Sequence record: PZ445430.1
Source of the DNA: a phage
Length of the DNA stretch: 64,000 nucleotides
Strand: one strand, 5' to 3'
The notes under the pieces were generated by a model, which made no database searches, had not been told where the DNA came from, and worked only from the letters and a program-made list of their open reading frames with translations. Within the stretch, counting starts at the first letter, position 1. Each line of letters starts with the position of its first letter. Positions 13,955-46,630 of the stretch are shown here, one piece after another. A program made the translations under genes and the position numbers.

Positions 13955-14350
13955 TCAATCATCATTTAGGCCTGGGACATAGATTCCAATGCGATTTAAT
14001 TGACCTTTAGCTTCTTCGAGAATATCTTCGGTGTACTCCCAAATATCATCTTCTACTTGCAAAAGATAAGGGGATTCACCAGTTTCGGGGTCACGTGTAA
14101 TGGCTAAGCCACGTGGATGGAATATAGAGAAGTTGAGGGCAACAATCAAGCCCATGCTGGACAATTCATTCCAGTCAGCTTCCCAACCATCATCTTCATC
14201 TTCGTCCACAAAGACACCTACACTAGGGTCTGTTACAGAAGTAAACGGAAATGTTACACTAACCTTGTCAACCCCCAACCAACGTGCAAGGAGCCCTTCA
14301 GCACGCTCTACCAAATTAGGATCTATCTGACGCCAAAATACTTGTTCCAT
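13955..14350 (-). CDS. hypothetical protein, paralog A of a tandem pair
   Basis: 131 aa; shares W-x-EL-x-x-MGL-x-x-ALN and a GY-x-x-PGL C-terminus with the adjacent ORF. Confidence 0.5.
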   Translation of the reverse strand: MEQVFWRQIDPNLVERAEGLLARWLGVDKVSVTFPFTSVTDPSVGVFVDEDEDDGWEADWNELSSMGLIVALNFSIFHPRGLAITRDPETGESPYLLQVEDDIWEYTEDILEEAKGQLNRIGIYVPGLNDD

Positions 14351-14359
14351 TCTGCCTCC

Positions 14360-14788
14360 TTAAGCAGTTAAACCTGGGATCATATACCCGAAACGACGAA
14401 GTTTCTGAATCCCCTCATTTACTTCTTCGGGCGAATATGACCAGCCCTCACGTTCATTTACCTGGAAAGCAGGAGCTTCACCAGTGCGATAGTTTACAAT
14501 AAGACGGTGATTTGCAGGCATAAACAGCTTATGGTTCAAGGCAAAAACCAGACCCATTTCATCTAGTTCTTTCCAGTCTACAATTTCTTCTACTCTCTCA
14601 CCTAAATCCACGCTAACTCCAATACATGGAGCTTCCTCTAGTGGGCCTTTAAAGGATAGGAAGATATCGTTATTATCACACCAAATCTTAAGCAGATTGA
14701 TGGTTTCATTATACATACCATTAGGGAGAGAACGCCAGAAGTTGAGGAGCATAGGGTTTACCTCTTTCATGAAAAGATTATCGAACAT
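14360..14788 (-). CDS. hypothetical protein, paralog B of a tandem pair
   Basis: 142 aa; same conserved blocks as 13955-14350. Confidence 0.5.
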   Translation of the reverse strand: MFDNLFMKEVNPMLLNFWRSLPNGMYNETINLLKIWCDNNDIFLSFKGPLEEAPCIGVSVDLGERVEEIVDWKELDEMGLVFALNHKLFMPANHRLIVNYRTGEAPAFQVNEREGWSYSPEEVNEGIQKLRRFGYMIPGLTA

Positions 14789-14790
14789 AT

Positions 14791-15330
14791 TTACACCTTA
14801 AGTTTCTGAAGAGCCTTACACATTTCAAGATCTGGACTAAACTCCAGCATATAGCTGATAGCATTTAAATCTTGAAGGTTTATTCCAGTCCTGCCATTTA
14901 CAATAACAGTAGGGAATTGGTACATCATAGCACCAGCATCATCTAGGACACACCAATGCTTGAGCTTATATTTTTCGACGAAACGTAAAACAGAATTACC
15001 CCGAGATAAACCACCTCCAGTAAAATCTGTTGTACCAAGGAAACGATCGATCAAACCGAGCCCGGTCATAATCTGAACGTTCTCCATCTCATTTCGTACA
15101 GAAAACCATGAAGATACCCCAACAATCATTATTGGGGATGGCTTAAGAAAGTTCTGAAAAGCCTGGAGTAATGGCTTGTAAACCCAATCACCACCAAAGA
15201 ATAGCTTCTCACTATCTGGAGCATGATGGTGAGAGATGCTCGAATTGAGCACCCCATCAATATCCAGGAAAATCACAGGAGTATTACTTATTTCCACCAG
15301 TAGCATCCCACGTCCAGACTTTAACTTCAT
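14791..15330 (-). CDS. HAD-superfamily hydrolase/phosphatase-like protein
   Basis: 179 aa; HAD motif I-like VIFLDIDGVLN near the N-terminus. Confidence 0.5.
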   Translation of the reverse strand: MKLKSGRGMLLVEISNTPVIFLDIDGVLNSSISHHHAPDSEKLFFGGDWVYKPLLQAFQNFLKPSPIMIVGVSSWFSVRNEMENVQIMTGLGLIDRFLGTTDFTGGGLSRGNSVLRFVEKYKLKHWCVLDDAGAMMYQFPTVIVNGRTGINLQDLNAISYMLEFSPDLEMCKALQKLKV

Positions 15331-15468: not shown

Positions 15469-15632
15469 TATTCTCCCTCCTTAATAAGGAACTCTTTCCA
15501 TTCTGCTGTATCCTCATAGATAACGCAGAAATCATCACTCTTCCATGAGAAGTCATCAGTAGCAAATTCGAAACGGTAGCACCAACTACCATCTGGCCAT
15601 ACTAAAAGATCACACATGCTTTTCTGGGACAT
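15450..15632 (-). CDS. small acidic hypothetical protein
   Basis: 60 aa from the ATG behind a GGAGGG RBS; acidic C-terminus EGEYGEEDF. Confidence 0.4.
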   Translation of the reverse strand: MSQKSMCDLLVWPDGSWCYRFEFATDDFSWKSDDFCVIYEDTAEWKEFLIKEGEYGEEDF

Positions 15633-16461
15633 AAATATTTCCCTCCATAAAAGCTTCAACTTGATCAATAAAGTGTTTATTACCAAAAACTTCGGCAGCT
15701 CCAGCACGCCATACAGTAACACCACGTTTCTCATACTCAAGCTGTTCGTCATAACGAACTTGTGGGTTAACAACCATCATCTTAGTTCCACGACATACAG
15801 CAGGAAATAATTCCCAGTTGAAGTTGATAACTTGGTTACTACAACCCACCACAATAACCATGTCATTGCTAGTAAGAGTATCAAACAGGTTGATTTGACC
15901 CATGTACCACGGAGCTGTCTCACCAAAGAACACCACGTTTGGTTTTACCCATTCGTAATCTTCAGGGGCAATCGCAGTATACCCAACATCTTCGATGATT
16001 TGATTGCGACCCTGATGATAGATCACCTCTTTCAAGTACCCGTGAGCGTGAATGATTTCATCACGAGGGATACCAGCACGTTCCAGAAGGTCATCAACGT
16101 TAGTAGTGAAGTTCTTCACGCTACCCGCATCATAACGCTGGAACCATTCTGCAATTCGCAGATGGGCAATGTTAGGCTCAACAGTCTGTAGTTCCTGACG
16201 ACGCATGTTGTAGAACTCATGAGTCTTGAGATACAGATCGTTACCATCTTCATCAATGCCAGGGAAACGAGCGCTGAAGTAGTTAGGATCATCTTCACCA
16301 CAGAAGCGACGGAAGCCAGCTTCAAAGTTAGGCAAGCTACATACTTCCTCTAGATCGTACTCATCCCACAAAGATTTTCCACTAGCAGTATCAGTACGGA
16401 AAGCACGAACACCACTATCTACACTCAAACCTGCACCACTAACAACAATTAGTCTACGCAT
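15610..16461 (-). CDS. SIR2-family (sirtuin-like) NAD-dependent protein
   Basis: 283 aa; sirtuin NAD-binding motif VVSGAGLSVDSGVRAFR; catalytic-type HG in IIHAHGY; VVFFGE block; no canonical CxxC-CxxC zinc module. Confidence 0.7.
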   Translation of the reverse strand: MRRLIVVSGAGLSVDSGVRAFRTDTASGKSLWDEYDLEEVCSLPNFEAGFRRFCGEDDPNYFSARFPGIDEDGNDLYLKTHEFYNMRRQELQTVEPNIAHLRIAEWFQRYDAGSVKNFTTNVDDLLERAGIPRDEIIHAHGYLKEVIYHQGRNQIIEDVGYTAIAPEDYEWVKPNVVFFGETAPWYMGQINLFDTLTSNDMVIVVGCSNQVINFNWELFPAVCRGTKMMVVNPQVRYDEQLEYEKRGVTVWRAGAAEVFGNKHFIDQVEAFMEGNIYVPEKHV

Positions 16462-16836: not shown

Positions 16837-17118
16837 TTAGTTCTGTACTGTAAATTCATTCTTATCACAGTGAGCATAATAATACCCATACATACGATAA
16901 ATTTTCACAGCCTTAGTAGACCCCTTCGATTCTTCATAATCAATCCAGAGCCACTTGTCTTTACCTACATAATGTACCCGAAACTTCTTAACTTTCTTAT
17001 CATTCCATGTTGCAACAACACGACGATAATCAAATCCACCCAACCAATCTAGAGCCTTACGTTCTTCACTAGGCTCTCCAAGATAGGAAACATCTACTTT
17101 CGGAAGCAATTCGCTCAT
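16837..17118 (-). CDS. hypothetical protein
   Basis: 93 aa; GAGAGGAGAAAG RBS; minus-strand promoter 17147-17175 upstream. Confidence 0.5.
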   Translation of the reverse strand: MSELLPKVDVSYLGEPSEERKALDWLGGFDYRRVVATWNDKKVKKFRVHYVGKDKWLWIDYEESKGSTKAVKIYRMYGYYYAHCDKNEFTVQN

Positions 17119-17216: not shown

Positions 17217-19091
17217 TTATTTAGCGCGAATGTCCTGATGTTTCACTCGACCCATAACCTCATGTTGTTTACCTGGGTTAAATGGACGAGCACCTGGATT
17301 TCCGAGATATCCACAAACTCGACGAGTTACCTCAAGAGTCTCAGGATCATGGTTGCCACAAATTGGGCATTTGAAACCATCCTCAGAAGCTATAGTTTCA
17401 CCCAAGAACCCACATTCCCCACAAGAGTCTACTGGAGTATTAATACCAAAGTAATGAACTTTACTTGCGGCATAGTTAATAACCCATTCCAGTGCATCTG
17501 GGAATCGTTTCATATCCGGCAATTCCACATAGGAAATGCATCCACCAGAAGCAATTGGAGTAAAGTTAGACTCATAATCGAACTTCACGTTTGGAGCAAC
17601 CTTACGTTCTACATCAAGGTGATGGGAATTAGTGTAATATCCTTTAGCCAGAATATCTTCATGCTCTGGAAAATACTCACGGTCTAGGCGACAGAAGCGA
17701 TCACATAGAGATTCAGATGGTGTAGCATATAGACTATACCCTAATTGAGTCTCTTCCTTCTTCTGATCAGCACGATCACGCATGTATTGTAGCACACGTT
17801 GAACGAACTTGACACAAGACTCAGACATTGTATCTACATCTTTACCAAACATGAACTGCAACATTTCGTGGCAGCCTATATATCCTAGAGATACAGAAGC
17901 ACGCTTGTAGAAATGATCAAACACATACTCATCTGGCCCCAGACGTAATCCAAAGGCTCCTGACATATAGAGGATGGGCGCAGCTTTAGCTTGGATGTAT
18001 TTTAAGCGATCAACCCTCCACTCCAATGCTTTTAACGCGGTATCCACACGCAGCTCAAGTAGATCGAAGAATAGATCAATATTTCCTTCCGCTTCGATAG
18101 CGATTCGAGGAAGGTTTACGGAAACAACGCCTAAGTTGTTACGACCAGAAGTTTCACCATCTTCCGCAGCAGCCAGGAATGAACGACAGCCCATAGAGAC
18201 TTTGTAGTCTCCCGTAACTTCTACAACCTTATCATAACTGATGTAGTCAGGATACATACGTTCAGCAGTACATTTCATAGCTAACTTCTTGATATCATAG
18301 TTAACATCACCAGGTTTCATGTTTACGCCATCACGCAAAACAAATACCAGTTTAGGGAAGATAGCTGTACGTTTATTGATACCCAAACCATCCATACGCA
18401 CTTCTAGGATTGCTTTCTGTACAAGACGTGCTTCCCAAGAAGTTCCTAGACCAAACCCAAAGGTAATAAACGGACTTTGACCATTAGAGTTGAACATCGT
18501 ATTGATTTCATACTCCAGGCCCTGACAGGCATCGTAAACTTCTTTCTCAGTCATTTCCGTAGCCATTACAGATGCTTTAGCTTCATCCTTAGTCCAACGC
18601 TTTGCAAACGCATGATTCTTATCATAAGACTTACGAACATAAGGAGCCAATACTTCATCTAATCGGTCTACAGAAGTACCCCCATATTGATGTGAACTAA
18701 CCTGAGTGATAATCTGAGCTGTGATAGCAGCCGCAGTAGTAATAGAGTTTGGTGTACTGATTTCAGCATTACCAACCTTCATACCATTCTTCAACATATC
18801 TTCCAAAGCAACCAGGCAACAGTTAGTCATACCTAACGCAGCGTAATCAGCATCATGGAAGTGAATATCACCAATCATGTGAGCATTTCGAATCTGGATT
18901 GGCATTTCTTCCAGAATCAGATATTTACTCAATTCCCCTGCAAGCATATCCCTTTGTGTAGGGAAACGTTCTGAGGGCTTATTGGCATTATTAAACAGCA
19001 GCTCTTCATCTGCTGAACCTTCGATAATTTCTTTGCAGTTTCGAATCAAGGACTGCATTCCTTTATACTTTAGTTCTTCATTGTGATTCAT
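17217..19091 (-). CDS. nrdD: anaerobic ribonucleoside-triphosphate reductase (class III)
   Basis: 624 aa; C-terminal zinc ribbon CGECG...CPICG followed by glycyl-radical motif RVCGYLG. Confidence 0.85.
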   Translation of the reverse strand: MNHNEELKYKGMQSLIRNCKEIIEGSADEELLFNNANKPSERFPTQRDMLAGELSKYLILEEMPIQIRNAHMIGDIHFHDADYAALGMTNCCLVALEDMLKNGMKVGNAEISTPNSITTAAAITAQIITQVSSHQYGGTSVDRLDEVLAPYVRKSYDKNHAFAKRWTKDEAKASVMATEMTEKEVYDACQGLEYEINTMFNSNGQSPFITFGFGLGTSWEARLVQKAILEVRMDGLGINKRTAIFPKLVFVLRDGVNMKPGDVNYDIKKLAMKCTAERMYPDYISYDKVVEVTGDYKVSMGCRSFLAAAEDGETSGRNNLGVVSVNLPRIAIEAEGNIDLFFDLLELRVDTALKALEWRVDRLKYIQAKAAPILYMSGAFGLRLGPDEYVFDHFYKRASVSLGYIGCHEMLQFMFGKDVDTMSESCVKFVQRVLQYMRDRADQKKEETQLGYSLYATPSESLCDRFCRLDREYFPEHEDILAKGYYTNSHHLDVERKVAPNVKFDYESNFTPIASGGCISYVELPDMKRFPDALEWVINYAASKVHYFGINTPVDSCGECGFLGETIASEDGFKCPICGNHDPETLEVTRRVCGYLGNPGARPFNPGKQHEVMGRVKHQDIRAK

Positions 19092-26843: not shown

Positions 26844-27319
26844 TGTCGGTTTTCCACATATATACAGATGGTGCATGTAAAGGCAATCCTGGTTTAGGTG
26901 CGTGGGGATTCGTTGTCTATAATGATAATGATGATCGTATTGGCTCTAAATCTGGCTTCAGCCCTAAAACTACTAATAACGAAATGGAACTTACTGCAAT
27001 TGTAGAAGTTCTTCGTTGGTCTACTAAGAAAGATAATCGTCCAGTAATTATCTACACTGATTCTGCTTACTGCAAAAATGGTATGGAAAGCTGGATGTGG
27101 TCTTGGCAGAAGAAAGGCTGGAAGAAGGGAGATGGTGAAACTCCTCTTAATCTAGAACTCTGGCAAGAAGCATTTAAACTAACTCAACAGTATATTAACT
27201 TCCATGATACCAATCCAACCTTTGTTAAGGTTAAAGGTCACTCAGGTATTCGTGGTAATGAAGAAGTTGATGCTCTATGCAATACTGTAATTACTGAGCA
27301 AGAACTTGCTGAGATGTAA
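26843..27319 (+). CDS. rnhA: ribonuclease H
   Basis: RNase HI motifs HIYTDGACKGNPG, ELTAIVE, IIYTDSAY, VKGHSGIRGNEEVD. Confidence 0.8.
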   Translation: MSVFHIYTDGACKGNPGLGAWGFVVYNDNDDRIGSKSGFSPKTTNNEMELTAIVEVLRWSTKKDNRPVIIYTDSAYCKNGMESWMWSWQKKGWKKGDGETPLNLELWQEAFKLTQQYINFHDTNPTFVKVKGHSGIRGNEEVDALCNTVITEQELAEM

Positions 27320-34801: not shown

Positions 34802-35857
34802 ATGATTAAGACTGGTCTAGTAATTGGTAAGTTCGCGCCATTAACGCGTGGTCATATTAACCTAATAAACACAGCAGCAACTATGTGTGAACGAGTTATT
34901 GTTGTAGTTAGTCATGATAATCGTTGGCTGGATAAGCAGAACACACGTGATCAGGAAGTATTACAGTTAAAGAATCGACTTCGTTGGTTAGAACAAACTT
35001 ACGCGGATATTGAGCACATTTCGGTAGAGTACATTATTGAAGATGATATTCCTGAATATCCGAATGGTTGGCCGGAATATGCTAGAATCCTTAATGAAAA
35101 TTACGGACATTTGCCTGAGATCACCGTTTTCTCTAGCGAACTAGACTATGATGCAGAATATAAGAAATATCTGCCGAAGTTTGGTCATTATATTGTAGAT
35201 TCTGATCGGACTCGTGTTCCAATCTCAGCTACAATGATTCGTAATGATCTTATGAAGTATTGGGAGTTTCTTCCTAGCGTAGTTCGTAAAGATTACGTGC
35301 GTAAGGTTGTAATCATTGGGACTGAAAGCTCGGGAAAGACTACTTTAACAAAATACCTTGCGAAGCTATACAACACTTCGTGGGTAGAAGAATATGGCCG
35401 AACGTATTGTGAAGTTGATCTAGTTGGTAACGAAAATCTACTTACCAGTGAAGATTACAGTAAAATTGCGTTCAGACACAAAGAGCTAGAGTTTGAGGCA
35501 GAACGTACTGCAAATAAGATCATGTTTGTAGACACAAATGCTTTTATTACTGAGTTCTACCACAGACTTTATGAACATCGTAAGAATCCTGTGGTTACAG
35601 CAATTGCAAAAGAAGAACATTACGATTTAGTAATTGTTCTAGCGCCTACTGTTAAGTGGGTAGATGATGGTTTACGTATTAACTCCGATCGTTCAATTAC
35701 TTCTGAACTGTTCGAGCAGATGAAGAAAGAATTTCCAAATCAGTTCCCTGAAGGGCGTACTGTTTACATCGACTCCCCGGACTACAAAGTTCGTATGGAC
35801 GAAGCAGTAAACGCAGTAGACTGGCTGATTCATCACTTTAACGTTGGAGAGTTTTAA
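34802..35857 (+). CDS. nadR: NadR-like bifunctional NMN adenylyltransferase / ribosylnicotinamide kinase
   Basis: Nucleotidyltransferase motif GKFAPLTRGH at the N-terminus; second-domain P-loop GTESSGKTTL; start at 34802 after promoter 34743-34771. Confidence 0.65.
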   Translation: MIKTGLVIGKFAPLTRGHINLINTAATMCERVIVVVSHDNRWLDKQNTRDQEVLQLKNRLRWLEQTYADIEHISVEYIIEDDIPEYPNGWPEYARILNENYGHLPEITVFSSELDYDAEYKKYLPKFGHYIVDSDRTRVPISATMIRNDLMKYWEFLPSVVRKDYVRKVVIIGTESSGKTTLTKYLAKLYNTSWVEEYGRTYCEVDLVGNENLLTSEDYSKIAFRHKELEFEAERTANKIMFVDTNAFITEFYHRLYEHRKNPVVTAIAKEEHYDLVIVLAPTVKWVDDGLRINSDRSITSELFEQMKKEFPNQFPEGRTVYIDSPDYKVRMDEAVNAVDWLIHHFNVGEF

Positions 35858-35858
35858 T

Positions 35859-36536
35859 ATGACTAACTATCTTGTAAATGACTTTAAAAACTGGAAACCT
35901 TTGGAATATCTGTGGCTGTTTATAGCAGTCGCCTTTATTAGTTTAGCAAACTATAATGGTACAGCTCTAGATTGGGCTACTGCAATAACCAATGTGGTTT
36001 GTGTTATTCTGGTTGCAAAAGGACGTGTTTCCAACTATATTTGGGGCTTAGTGGGTGTTCTTACATATGGTATTACAGCTTTAAACGCAGATCTTTATGG
36101 TAACGCTGCACTAAACCTGCTATACTACGTTCCTATGCAGTTTTATGGAATGTACTTATGGCATAAAAATAAGCCAAGTAATCTGCCAGATGTTCCAACT
36201 AAGTTTCTGACTAAAGCCCAAGCTCTGCTGACTCTAGGGATTCTAGCAGTAGCCACGTTAGGGTATGGTAGTTTCTTAGCTACTACAGCTGATCCATTCC
36301 CAATGCTCGATGCATTTACTGCGGTTGGTAGTGTGATCGCTATGTGGCTTATGGTTAAGCAGTATGCCGAGCAGTGGCTGATCTGGATTGCTATTAACAT
36401 TGGTACTGTGTACATTTGGCTTGTAACTGCTCAATCTACAGGTGCATCTTATGCAATCCTAGCAATGTGGCTAGTATTCTTAGGTAACTCTATTATGGGA
36501 GCCTATAAAGGATACTTTGTACGCGTTAACAAATAA
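35859..36536 (+). CDS. pnuC: PnuC-like nicotinamide riboside transporter
   Basis: About 225 aa polytopic membrane protein, Trp/Tyr-rich helices, directly coupled to the nadR stop. Confidence 0.6.
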   Translation: MTNYLVNDFKNWKPLEYLWLFIAVAFISLANYNGTALDWATAITNVVCVILVAKGRVSNYIWGLVGVLTYGITALNADLYGNAALNLLYYVPMQFYGMYLWHKNKPSNLPDVPTKFLTKAQALLTLGILAVATLGYGSFLATTADPFPMLDAFTAVGSVIAMWLMVKQYAEQWLIWIAINIGTVYIWLVTAQSTGASYAILAMWLVFLGNSIMGAYKGYFVRVNK

Positions 36537-43054: not shown

Positions 43055-43267
43055 ATGATGAAAACTCCTATAACTGATATCTGGTTAGCTGTTAATACGT
43101 TAACTAAAGAGTATGTGTTTATAGAGTATGGTCAGAGGTATGACCAAAAGATGTATAATCTCATACTTCCAGTATCCGCTAATGAAGTTTATGATTTAAT
43201 CCTGAGATCTACGGAAGAGCAAATCGACTTGGTGACGAAAACCACTTGGAAAGTGGCTGACTTGTGA
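43055..43267 (+). CDS. doubtful small ORF overlapping tRNA-Ser
   Basis: 70 aa ORF whose last 55 nt overlap the tRNA at 43213-43305. Confidence 0.2.
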   Translation: MMKTPITDIWLAVNTLTKEYVFIEYGQRYDQKMYNLILPVSANEVYDLILRSTEEQIDLVTKTTWKVADL

Positions 43268-43305
43268 AAGCAGGCTTGAGAGTTCGAATCTCTCTTCTTC
43301 CGCCA
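43213..43305 (+). tRNA. tRNA-Ser (anticodon GGA), class II
   Basis: Acceptor GGAAGAG/TTCTTCC, anticodon loop TTGGAAA, long variable arm, T-arm GAGAG-TTCGAAT-CTCTC, discriminator G, CCA. Confidence 0.6.
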
Positions 43306-43319
43306 AACAAAATTTATAG

Positions 43320-43414
43320 GGTAGGTCAATCCAACGGCTGGCGCTGGACTCCGACTTGAAATCGGTTGATCGTAGTGATACGGTGTAAGGGTTCGATCCC
43401 CTTACCTACCCCCA
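43320..43414 (+). tRNA. tRNA-Ser (anticodon TGA), class II
   Basis: Acceptor GGTAGGT/ACCTACC, anticodon stem CCGA/TCGG loop CTTGAAA, long variable arm, T-arm AAGGG-TTCGATC-CCCTT, CCA. Confidence 0.6.
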
Positions 43415-44830: not shown

Positions 44831-44844
44831 AAATTTAAAAATTC

Positions 44845-44874
44845 ATTTGCCTTCTCTCTTATTTCTTGTTATAA
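44845..44874 (+). promoter_or_regulatory. sigma70-type promoter
   Basis: TTGCCT, 18 bp, TATAAT. Confidence 0.5.
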
Positions 44875-44905
44875 TATTTATATAAATTAATGAGAGGGAA
44901 ACCAA

Positions 44906-45654: not shown

Positions 45655-45838
45655 AAAGATAAGATCAGGCCTTTGTGCCAGATCTCTGTGTTTATTAAAC
45701 TGAATGGGACTATCAATCCACAAGCCGGACTACGAGCGATTATCGGGTATTCACTTAATAAACAGCCTGCCTCCCAGTTTTTATCTTGCTTCTGGGTTAA
45801 CAAAAAGCTGAGCCAAATTCTAACATCATGGAGATCTA

Positions 45839-46207
45839 ATGAAAGCGTACCAAAACCTTAAATCCGGCGTAATTAACCTTGTTCATGACAATCAGATCAT
45901 TCAATTATACTCTAAAGATGGTGAACTTAAACAAAAAGTTCTAGTTGAAGATCTAGAAGGTATCACACCTCACTTTGATACTGAAGCCTTTCGCATCGTA
46001 GATGTTGAAGTAGTTCCTCAGGTCGAGGGCGGTCAGCACCTAAATGTCAATGTGTTAAGTCGTGATCAGCTTTTGGATGCACAGAAACATCCTGAAAAAT
46101 ACCCTCAGTTGACCATTCGTGTCTCTGGCTATGCTGTTCGATTTAATGCACTGACGCGTGAACAACAGAACGACGTTATTAGTCGTACATTTACTCAGGC
46201 GATATAA
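45839..46207 (+). CDS. grcA: autonomous glycyl-radical cofactor (GrcA/YfiD-like)
   Basis: 122 aa; C-terminal [11 protein letters not shown]...[20 protein letters not shown] carries the glycyl-radical motif RVSGY and closely matches enterobacterial GrcA as recalled. Confidence 0.75.
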
Positions 46208-46288
46208 TGGGGTTTGGATACGATTTCTCCCAGCTACGCAAGGTAGTCGAGCAAACTCCATTTATCTCCCAAGTTTTAGGAGAAATGT

Positions 46289-46582
46289 GTGGATCGAGCA
46301 TTAAGACGCCATCACCGGCAACGTGTGAAAAACAATCGCAAAAAGTATTGGACAGTCTTCCCACATGAAGAAAGTCCTAAGCGGTTAGGCATTATCACTA
46401 CCACTCCTTGCATCTGTTCTTGTTGGATGTGTGGGAATCCTCGCAAATACTATAAGAATAGTAAAGCAGGTATGAAAATCTCGGAGATTAAAAAGATGGA
46501 ATCGACTGAACTGATTATCGGATATGGCGAAGGTATTTCAAATGATGAATTTGATGGCTTCGTAGGTTTCGGTGAAGGTTAA
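46289..46582 (+). CDS. hypothetical basic, Cys-containing protein
   Basis: 97 aa; GTG start 8 nt after AGGAG; terminator follows. Confidence 0.45.
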   Translation: MDRALRRHHRQRVKNNRKKYWTVFPHEESPKRLGIITTTPCICSCWMCGNPRKYYKNSKAGMKISEIKKMESTELIIGYGEGISNDEFDGFVGFGEG

Positions 46583-46591
46583 TTAATAATA

Positions 46592-46630
46592 AACCCCAGC
46601 TATTGAATAAGTAGTCTGGGGTTTTCTTGT
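46592..46630 (+). terminator. intrinsic terminator
   Basis: AAACCCCAG...CTGGGGTTT hairpin then TCTTG. Confidence 0.6.

What the first reader, a model, noticed from the sequence alone, without database searches (positions are those of the whole stretch)
45839..46207. Phage-encoded GrcA-like autonomous glycyl-radical cofactor alongside class III RNR
The 122 aa product ends with ...[11 protein letters not shown]...[20 protein letters not shown]..., which closely matches enterobacterial GrcA/YfiD including the glycyl-radical motif RVSGY. The window also encodes the glycyl-radical enzyme NrdD but no recognisable NrdG activase. A spare glycyl-radical module could rescue oxygen-damaged host pyruvate formate-lyase or interact with NrdD; the high similarity to host GrcA suggests recent host capture.
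Basis: partly seen in the sequence, partly recalled or inferred. Interest (0 to 1): 0.6.

Follow-up and report, generated by a model that had tools for sequence, protein, structure and literature searches.

The report
T5-like phage spare glycyl-radical protein
This is a real, well-conserved phage copy of the small bacterial 'spare part' protein GrcA, which repairs oxygen-damaged pyruvate formate-lyase; the same kind of phage gene was characterised in T4 in 2001 and is already annotated in T5 and hundreds of relatives, so it is ordinary and was not recently taken from the host.

Summary
Window 45839..46207 (+) encodes a 122-aa protein whose C-terminal ~67 residues are a PFL-type glycyl-radical module with an intact [11 protein letters not shown] site (Gly97). 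The window also has an intact nrdD. No NrdG or PflA activase is found in the window or in the rest of the genome.

The window is 100% identical to Escherichia phage SuperGirl (Bas29), a T5-like phage. The gene is bas29_0135 and is 93% identical to T5.056. About 440 T5-like records hold a copy at 80% identity or more. It is 51% identical over its full length to T4 Y06I, which together with E. coli YfiD/GrcA was shown in 2001 to be activated by PflA and to rescue O2-cleaved PFL.

Two parts of the interpretation fail.
- **Recent host capture:** the gene is only 70-74% nt-identical to host grcA, pflB and tdcE, and synonymous sites are saturated. Its nearest relatives are other phage copies, and it is syntenic across T5-like phages (omega 0.07).
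- **Direct rescue of NrdD:** there is no similarity to the NrdD C-terminus.

A metabolic link is plausible but inferred: PFL makes formate, the reductant of this NrdD type. The kind is already known, so interest is low.

The parts
45839..46207 (+). GrcA-like autonomous glycyl-radical protein gene (bas29_0135; orthologue of T5.056), 122 aa plus stop
   Evidence: ORF. Pfam Gly_radical 4.3e-18. NCBIfam GrcA is the best hit at 118.6 bits. PHROG 1209 matches the full length at 4.4e-47. 100% identical to SuperGirl bas29_0135 and 93% identical to T5.056.
45839..45982 (+). Codons 1-48: lineage-specific N-terminal half. It is conserved within T5-like phages and only remotely similar to other GrcA N-termini.
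   Evidence: hhalign on N-terminal parts only: against bacterial GrcA, only residues 49-62 align; against jumbo-phage copies, residues 32-62 align at 63% probability. Omega for the N-half is 0.10. AF2 gives pLDDT 85-91 with four strands.
46004..46204 (+). Codons 56-122: glycyl-radical module equivalent to YfiD 61-127 and PFL 693-759 (strand, Gly loop, C-terminal helix)
   Evidence: Alignments to 6OWR and PflB. 37 invariant columns, all within residues 63-119. Foldseek: 6OWR has TM 0.75 normalised to the target, and glycyl radical enzyme domains fit at RMSD 1-1.5 A. Omega 0.026.
46118..46138 (+). Codons 94-100, RVSGYAV: the glycyl-radical site. Gly97 (46127..46129) is the predicted radical carrier and the site of PflA recognition.
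   Evidence: Read directly from the sequence. R[VI]SGY is present in 125 of 125 homologues, and the block is invariant in the alignment.
45827..45830 (+). GGAG Shine-Dalgarno, 5 nt before the ATG
   Evidence: Sequence context printed.
44832..44900 (+). Counterpart of T5 early promoter P11, the likely start of the transcription unit (two small ORFs, tRNA-Ile, tRNA-Met, the GrcA-like gene, then the T5.055 homologue)
   Evidence: Near-identical to the annotated T5 P11 sequence. Promoter function is inferred from T5's annotation and was not tested.
46594..46626 (+). Counterpart of T5's rho-independent terminator, the likely end of the unit
   Evidence: The CCCCAGCTATTGAATAAGTAGTCTGGGGTTTT sequence is identical to the T5 terminator at 27219..27251.
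17217..19091 (-). nrdD (class III RNR, formate type). It is not physically linked to the GrcA-like gene; the connection is metabolic at most.
   Evidence: Pfam NRDD 1.9e-172. 52% identical to E. coli NrdD, with the C175, M382, C384 and G681 equivalents conserved.

Best explanation
The gene encodes a phage version of the autonomous glycyl-radical cofactor (the GrcA/YfiD and T4 Y06I kind).

Proposed mechanism:
1. It is expressed early, from a T5 P11-type promoter at the end of the tRNA cluster.
2. In anaerobic or microaerobic hosts, oxygen cleaves active pyruvate formate-lyase (PflB, possibly also TdcE) at its radical glycine.
3. The phage protein's C-terminal 67 residues duplicate PFL residues 693-759. 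They dock into the cleaved enzyme in place of the lost piece.
4. Host PflA, which the phage does not encode, installs a new radical on Gly97, and PFL activity returns.
5. This keeps acetyl-CoA/ATP and formate production going in an infected cell. Such a cell can no longer express its own grcA or pflB, because T5-type phages shut off and degrade the host genome.
6. Formate is also the reductant of the phage's NrdD type, so the gene may indirectly sustain anaerobic dNTP synthesis.

Shown here: the ORF, its homology, the conserved site, purifying selection, synteny, the absence of a phage activase, and the predicted fold.

Inferred: activation by PflA, docking to cleaved PFL, the benefit during host shut-off, and the formate link to NrdD.
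For: - The C-module is 77% identical to PflB, 85% to TdcE and 80% to GrcA, with the [11 protein letters not shown] block identical.
- It is 51% identical over the full length to T4's homologue and belongs to the same PHROG. Y06I and YfiD are the two experimentally validated spare parts: PFL-AE installs the radical, and the complex with cleaved PFL regains activity (PMC8683613).
- The predicted fold matches the YfiD NMR structure and glycyl radical enzyme radical domains.
- Purifying selection is strong: omega 0.07 overall and 0.03 in the C-module, at dS 0.61 against T5.
- The gene is present in roughly 440 T5-like records at 80% identity or more and sits in the same place in T5.
- The complete genome has no PflA or NrdG homologue, so host activases must be used.
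- NrdD keeps the Cys/Met residues of the formate-using type (PMC4390871).
Against: - No experiment exists for any T5-like copy.
- The score is below NCBIfam's curated GrcA cut-off (118.6 against 170 bits), because the N-terminal ~48 residues do not match.
- In YfiD the N-terminal half matters for binding cleaved PFL and for activation (PMC8683613). A diverged N-half could therefore mean altered partner recognition.
- The C-module is closer to TdcE than to PflB, so the preferred target is uncertain.
- The host shut-off rationale and the formate-NrdD link are inference only.
Confidence: 0.8

Rival explanations
1. It is a spare part for the phage's own (or the host's) class III ribonucleotide reductase. 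After oxygen cleaves NrdD at its radical glycine, the small protein would replace the lost NrdD C-terminus.
For: NrdD is oxygen-cleaved at its glycyl radical like PFL (established knowledge). The phage carries nrdD. PMC8683613 speculates that spare parts may exist for other glycyl radical enzymes.
Against: BLASTP of the protein against the phage's NrdD gives E 17, with no alignment at the radical site. The NrdD loop is RVCGYLG, preceded by a Cys4 zinc ribbon that the small protein lacks. The module is 77-85% identical to PflB and TdcE. NrdD is activated by NrdG, not by PflA. The genes are 27 kb apart on opposite strands.
Confidence: 0.03
2. It is a recently captured host gene fragment (grcA, or a pflB/tdcE 3' end) carried as a passenger with little or no function of its own.
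For: High amino-acid identity to the host modules. T4's copy does carry a host-identical C-module: 98% nt identity, dS 0.068.
Against: Nucleotide identity to the host paralogues is 70-74%, third-position identity is 41-44%, and dS is saturated. Nearest relatives are phage copies. The N-half is phage-specific yet constrained, with omega 0.10. The gene is syntenic in T5 at 93% aa identity with dS 0.61. It has its own Shine-Dalgarno and start.
Confidence: 0.02
3. It is a modulator or decoy rather than a repair part. It would bind host PflA or intact/cleaved PFL/TdcE through its diverged N-terminal half, to redirect activase capacity or fermentative flux (for example to control formate or acetyl-CoA supply), without simply restoring normal PFL function.
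For: The N-terminal ~48 residues are lineage-specific and under selection. In YfiD the N-half governs binding and activation. The C-module mixes GrcA-, PflB- and TdcE-type residues and is closest to TdcE.
Against: All 37 invariant columns of the alignment lie in the radical module, and the radical site itself is kept. That is expected for a working cofactor and unnecessary for a decoy. T4 Y06I, with a similarly diverged N-half, does restore PFL activity (PMC8683613). AF2 predicts the same kind of beta-rich N-half for bacterial GrcA.
Confidence: 0.1

Closest known systems
Bacteriophage T4 Y06I (lies between vs.7 and vs.4; Wagner et al. 2001, BBRC 285:456, as cited in PMC8683613)
   Same: A small stand-alone phage protein (120 aa against 122). 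It shares the MKAYQ start, 51% full-length identity and PHROG 1209. It has the same RVSGYAV radical module and is carried by a virulent coliphage that also encodes NrdD.
   Different: T4's C-module is 98% nt-identical to K-12 grcA, a recent host-derived swap that starts exactly at codon 60. The T5-like module diverged long ago (70% nt identity). T4 encodes its own NrdG; T5-like phages encode no activase. Only Y06I has been tested biochemically.
E. coli GrcA/YfiD (P68066; NMR structure 6OWR)
   Same: Same length class and same C-terminal module (80% identity over 61 residues). The predicted fold matches (TM 0.75 normalised to the target). The start is similar (M-x-x-x-x-Q).
   Different: N-terminal residues 1-48 are not detectably similar by direct profile comparison. 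The score is below the TIGR04365 cut-off (118.6 against 170 bits). The gene is phage-borne and expressed from a phage early promoter rather than a stress- or anaerobiosis-regulated host promoter.
T5.056 and its orthologues in Markadamsvirinae (annotated as acetyltransferase-related protein, pyruvate formate-lyase, 2-ketobutyrate formate-lyase, ribonucleotide reductase subunit, or glycyl radical cofactor)
   Same: An orthologue: 87-100% identical, in the same position after tRNA-Ile and tRNA-Met, with the same flanking promoter and terminator.
   Different: Nothing of substance differs. Only the naming in the records is inconsistent. 'Formate acetyltransferase' and 'ribonucleotide reductase subunit' are wrong for a 122-aa protein that lacks the catalytic barrel.
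C-terminal glycyl-radical domains of PflB and TdcE
   Same: 77% and 85% identity over the last 61 residues, including the strand, the Gly loop and the terminal helix.
   Different: There is no catalytic 10-stranded barrel and no Cys418/Cys419 pair. The protein cannot be a formate acetyltransferase on its own.

Membership tests
Autonomous glycyl radical cofactor (GrcA/YfiD; NCBIfam TIGR04365, InterPro IPR011140) | Stand-alone protein of about 120-130 aa, not a fragment of a larger glycyl radical enzyme gene | tested here: met
   A 122-aa ORF with its own Shine-Dalgarno and ATG, flanked by a tRNA gene and small ORFs. It is conserved as such in T5.
Autonomous glycyl radical cofactor (GrcA/YfiD; NCBIfam TIGR04365, InterPro IPR011140) | C-terminal ~60-67 residues homologous to PFL 693-759, with the RVSGYAV radical glycine site | tested here: met
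   Pfam Gly_radical 4.3e-18. 77-85% identity to PflB, TdcE and GrcA with [11 protein letters not shown] identical.
Autonomous glycyl radical cofactor (GrcA/YfiD; NCBIfam TIGR04365, InterPro IPR011140) | Score at or above the curated equivalog cut-off (170 bits) over the full-length model | tested here: not met
   118.6 bits, with only residues 54-121 matching model positions 58-125. GrcA3 (116 against 158 bits) and GrcA2 (90 against 145 bits) are also below their cut-offs.
Autonomous glycyl radical cofactor (GrcA/YfiD; NCBIfam TIGR04365, InterPro IPR011140) | N-terminal half homologous to the GrcA N-terminal half | tested here: inconclusive
   Direct N-term-only hhalign aligns only residues 49-62 (35% probability). 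A transitive link exists through jumbo-phage copies: T5-like to jumbo 63%, jumbo to bacterial 91%. The M-x-x-x-x-Q start is shared, and AF2 predicts a similar beta-rich N-half for both.
Autonomous glycyl radical cofactor (GrcA/YfiD; NCBIfam TIGR04365, InterPro IPR011140) | Fold of the C-terminal half equals the YfiD/PFL radical domain | tested here: met
   Tested on a predicted model only. Foldseek gives 6OWR at E 6.5e-6 with TM 0.75 normalised to the target. CutC, PFL-like and diol dehydratase radical domains fit at RMSD 0.8-1.5 A over 44-47 residues.
Autonomous glycyl radical cofactor (GrcA/YfiD; NCBIfam TIGR04365, InterPro IPR011140) | Radical installed by PFL activase; restores activity to O2-cleaved PFL | not testable with these tools
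   Shown only for YfiD and T4 Y06I (PMC8683613). This needs biochemistry.
Phage Y06I-type proteins (PHROG 1209) | Full-length match to the phage family profile | tested here: met
   phrog_1209 at 4.4e-47, residues 1-122 onto profile positions 1-121 of 121. tblastn gives 100% coverage and 51% identity to T4.
Pyruvate formate-lyase / formate acetyltransferase (as the GenBank record names it) | A catalytic barrel of about 760 aa with the Cys418/Cys419 active site | tested here: not met
   Only PFL model positions 683-743 are matched: 84 bits against a cut-off of 994. The protein is 122 aa.
Class III RNR component (as some records name it, 'ribonucleotide reductase subunit') | Similarity to the NrdD C-terminus or to NrdG | tested here: not met
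   BLASTP against the phage NrdD gives E 17. There is no NRDD or radical-SAM Pfam hit.

The most novel reading that the evidence does not exclude
The T5-like copies would be a functionally distinct branch of spare-part proteins. Their selected, lineage-specific N-terminal half and TdcE-like C-module would retarget the protein to TdcE or to a phage-modified PFL complex. Alternatively, they would tune formate output specifically to feed the activase-less phage NrdD. Either way it would be a dedicated viral device coupling repair of fermentation enzymes to anaerobic dNTP synthesis, rather than a plain GrcA equivalent.
Probability: 0.1. Interest if true: 0.5.

Novelty: already known. Interest (0 to 1): 0.15.

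Why it matters
It matters little as a discovery. Phage-encoded GrcA-type spare parts have been known since 2001, and this exact gene is deposited and annotated.

The useful outputs are corrective:
- The record's product name ('putative formate acetyltransferase') and the names in sister records ('ribonucleotide reductase subunit', '2-ketobutyrate formate-lyase', 'acetyltransferase-related') should read 'autonomous glycyl radical cofactor-like protein'.
- The host-capture idea is wrong for T5-like phages but right for the C-terminal module of T4's copy.
- T5-like phages depend on host PflA and NrdG for both of their glycyl-radical proteins.

If someone wished to study why virulent enterophages keep this gene, the T5-like clade offers a natural contrast to T4: it has no phage activase, and its module diverged long ago.

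Tried and rejected
- **A hidden activase.** I scanned the nine ORFs downstream of nrdD with Pfam, looked for CX3CX2C in all six frames of the window and the genome, and ran tblastn with E. coli PflA and NrdG against the complete genome. Nothing was found.
  - The only Cys-cluster hit, at 46409, lies in a 97-aa ORF that is far too small for a radical-SAM enzyme and has no Pfam or NCBIfam match.
  - The weak NrdG-like hit in bas29_0056 (pairwise E 2e-4 over 36 residues) got no profile support. I treat it as unresolved and probably chance.
- **The N-half as a diverged copy of PFL residues ~630-692.** hhalign of the N-terminal parts against PflB and TdcE gave probabilities of 0.5% or less. Rejected as untestable at this depth.
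- **A phage-specific ordered N-domain.** AF2 gave a confident beta sheet, but the bacterial control gave the same. This is not a distinguishing feature.
- **A structured RNA or degenerate tRNA in the 173-nt stretch upstream of the gene.** There is no Rfam hit, and the stretch is variable among relatives.
- **Consensus promoter and terminator scan.** It was not above shuffled expectation and missed the T5-type terminator. I used T5's annotated features instead.
- **Literature searches** for T5-like phages plus PFL, nrdG or formate found nothing specific.
- A first tree attempt timed out and was redone with numpy.

Full report
**1. What is in the sequence**

A GGAG Shine-Dalgarno sits 5 nt before the ATG. 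The product matches:
- Pfam Gly_radical at 4.3e-18, residues 62-103;
- the NCBIfam GrcA model as best hit, at 118.6 bits, residues 54-121;
- PHROG 1209 over its whole length, 4.4e-47;
- the E. coli GrcA structure 6OWR at 1.9e-29 and PflB at 1.4e-26.

BLASTP against K-12 GrcA gives 74% identity over 74 residues, E 8e-38. The radical glycine is Gly97 in [11 protein letters not shown].

**2. Where the window comes from**

The window is 100% identical to bases 32481..96480 of Escherichia phage SuperGirl (Bas29, MZ501105.1), an Epseptimavirus of the Demerecviridae, which makes it a T5-like phage. The gene is bas29_0135, 'putative formate acetyltransferase'.

It sits at the end of the tRNA cluster, immediately after tRNA-Ile and tRNA-Met. 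Phage T5 has the orthologue T5.056 in the same place. It is 122 aa and 93% identical, and was annotated from the InterPro glycine-radical domain.

T5's annotated regulatory features have counterparts in the window:
- T5 early promoter P11 has a near-identical counterpart at about 44832-44900.
- T5's rho-independent terminator has an identical counterpart at about 46594-46626.

The likely transcription unit is therefore promoter, two small ORFs, tRNA-Ile, tRNA-Met, the GrcA-like gene, the T5.055 homologue, then terminator. This is inferred from T5's annotation.

**3. How common it is**

tblastn finds the protein in 1584 phage records:
- about 440 records at 80% identity or more, which are T5-like phages of Escherichia, Salmonella and others;
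- about 1000 records below 60% identity, mainly T4-like phages;
- a middle group that includes jumbo phages and Aeromonas/Vibrio phages.

Product names in those records are inconsistent: pyruvate formate-lyase, 2-ketobutyrate formate-lyase, acetyltransferase-related protein, ribonucleotide reductase subunit, hypothetical protein. Several already say 'autonomous glycyl radical cofactor' or 'glycyl radical cofactor'.

**4. What is known about the kind**

PMC8683613 summarises Wagner et al. 2001. E. coli YfiD (GrcA) and T4 Y06I are ~14-kDa spare parts. PFL activase installs a glycyl radical on them, and the complex with oxygen-cleaved PFL regains activity. They are the only two validated cases.

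YfiD residues 61-127 duplicate PFL 693-759. Residues 1-60 are disordered in solution but aid binding to cleaved PFL and aid activation.

T4's homologue lies between vs.7 and vs.4. It is 120 aa and, like the T5-like protein, starts MKAYQ.

**5. Anatomy of the protein**

In an alignment of 34 phage and bacterial homologues, all 37 invariant columns lie between residues 63 and 119, and they include the whole L91-N103 block. All 125 retrieved homologues keep R[VI]SGY.

The N-terminal part behaves differently. With N-terminal parts alone:
- the T5-like profile aligns to bacterial GrcA only over residues 49-62;
- it aligns to jumbo-phage copies over residues 32-62, at 63% probability;
- jumbo-phage and bacterial N-halves align over their full length, at 91% probability.

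So residues 1-48 are a strongly diverged, probably homologous, lineage-specific half. This is why the score stays below NCBIfam's 170-bit GrcA cut-off.

An AlphaFold2 model (pLDDT 77) gives a helix, the Gly-loop hairpin and a helix in the C-half, and a confident four-stranded sheet in residues 1-37. Foldseek returns the YfiD NMR structure first (TM 0.75 normalised to the target), followed by the radical domains of many glycyl radical enzymes at RMSD 1-1.5 A. A control model of a bacterial GrcA from the same alignment also shows an ordered beta-rich N-half. The sheet is therefore not special to the phage.

**6. Is it a recent capture from the host? No.**

Identity over the 61-codon module:

| Compared with | aa % | nt % | third position % |
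|---|---|---|---|
| K-12 grcA | 80 | 70 | 41 |
| pflB | 77 | 72 | 43 |
| tdcE | 85 | 74 | 44 |

- Nei-Gojobori synonymous divergence is saturated against all three host genes.
- blastn against 5426 E. coli genomes finds only 73-76% identity. It is limited to bases 184-363 of the gene, and the best hit is tdcE.
- A neighbour-joining tree of the module puts the T5-like proteins in one clade (114 of 200 bootstraps), next to jumbo-phage copies at 84-87% identity. The hosts score lower: GrcA 79%, TdcE 80%, PflB 74%.
- Between SuperGirl and T5 the gene has dS 0.61 and dN 0.041, so omega is 0.07. Omega is 0.10 for the N-half and 0.026 for the C-half. This is a long-resident gene under purifying selection over its whole length.

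T4's copy gives a striking contrast. From codon 60 to the stop it is 98% nt-identical to K-12 grcA, with 97% identity at third positions and dS 0.068. The local alignment begins exactly at IEGGQH. GC3 jumps from 0.19 in the N-half to 0.41 in the C-half, equal to grcA. Recent host-derived module replacement therefore happened in T4, not here.

**7. The NrdD/NrdG part**

NrdD (17217..19091, -) is intact. It matches Pfam NRDD at 1.9e-172, has RVCGY and a Cys4 ribbon, and is 52% identical to E. coli NrdD.

No activase exists anywhere in the 110,821-bp genome:
- tblastn with E. coli NrdG and PflA gives a best E of 0.34;
- no CX3CX2C motif lies in a plausible ORF;
- nothing of the kind is annotated.

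NrdG homologues are common in T4-like, FelixO1-like and ICP1-like phages. None of the 30 sampled hits was a T5-like genome. The phage must therefore use host NrdG for NrdD and host PflA for the GrcA-like protein; this is inferred.

Direct rescue of NrdD by the small protein is not supported. BLASTP between the two gives E 17, and the module is of the PFL type. The two genes are 27 kb apart on opposite strands.

A metabolic link is reasonable. The phage NrdD keeps the equivalents of E. coli C175, M382 and C384. E. coli and T4 class III RNRs use formate as electron donor through a Cys-Met pair (PMC4390871), and PFL is the source of formate. This link is inference.

**8. Most likely mechanism**

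The protein is expressed early. It binds oxygen-cleaved host PflB (possibly TdcE) and is activated on Gly97 by host PflA. This restores pyruvate cleavage, and so acetyl-CoA/ATP and formate supply, in a cell whose own grcA and pflB can no longer be expressed after T5-type host shut-off. Confidence is about 0.8 for the repair function. Confidence is lower for the physiological rationale.

Rivals:
- a decoy or modulator acting through the diverged N-half, about 0.1;
- an NrdD spare part, about 0.03;
- a functionless recent capture, about 0.02.

**9. Verdict**

It belongs to a kind known since 2001 and is already annotated in T5 and many relatives. The host-capture claim and the NrdD-interaction claim are not supported. 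Novelty: already known. Interest: low (0.15).

Noticed in passing
L006:3001-3363 (T4 strain 147, KJ477685.1 61440..61802, minus strand): T4's Y06I gene is a chimera. Codons 60-120 and the stop are 98% nt-identical to E. coli K-12 grcA (dS 0.068), and the similarity starts exactly at IEGGQH. GC3 is 0.41 there against 0.19 in codons 1-59. This points to a recent, precise replacement of the radical module by the host's. The gene is unannotated in this T4 record.
   Followed up: partly
window 46289..46582 (+), overlapping 46207..46368 (+): A 97-aa GTG-started ORF (RRHHRQRVKNNRKKYW...CICSCWMCGNPRK) matches T5.055 (103 aa, GTG start) and phrog_4499 nearly end to end. The SuperGirl record instead annotates a 53-aa ORF in another frame plus a 51-aa remnant starting inside the Cys cluster. 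The long form is probably the real gene. It holds the only CX3CX2C motif in the window but is far too small for a radical-SAM enzyme. Its function is unknown.
   Followed up: partly
window 16837..17118 (-): bas29_0056 is a 93-aa ORF directly downstream of nrdD, where nrdG sits in other phages. It gives a weak pairwise hit to E. coli NrdG residues 87-122 (25% identity, pairwise E 2e-4) but has no Pfam or NCBIfam support and no Cys cluster. It could be chance or a relic of a lost activase gene.
   Followed up: partly
window 45657..45829 (+): The 173-nt spacer between tRNA-Met and the GrcA-like gene is absent from T5, where the gap is 13 nt. It varies in length among T5-like phages and matches no Rfam family. 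A weak sigma-70-like site (TTAACA-18-TAACAT) lies at 45797-45826.
   Followed up: yes
window 43213..43305 and 43320..43414 (+): Two tRNA-Ser genes annotated in the GenBank record were not called by ARAGORN, which found 27 tRNAs in the window.
   Followed up: no
window 34802..36536 (+) and 15610..16461 (-): The phage carries a putative nicotinamide-nucleotide adenylyltransferase, an NMN transporter and a Sir2-like protein, a set of NAD-metabolism genes. Near nrdD there are also two DUF7415 proteins and a HAD_SAK_2 domain protein (13955..15297, -).
   Followed up: no
window 17217..19091 (-): The phage NrdD lacks the N-terminal ~85 residues of E. coli NrdD, the region that carries the ATP-cone in the host enzyme. 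It keeps the Cys/Met/Cys/Gly catalytic set of formate-dependent class III RNRs.
   Followed up: partly
models m7f40dec4df5a and md5f86f0728f9: AlphaFold2 predicts a confident beta-rich N-terminal half (pLDDT 85-90) for both the phage protein and a bacterial GrcA. NMR finds YfiD residues 1-60 disordered in solution. One possibility is a segment that folds on binding cleaved PFL.
   Followed up: partly
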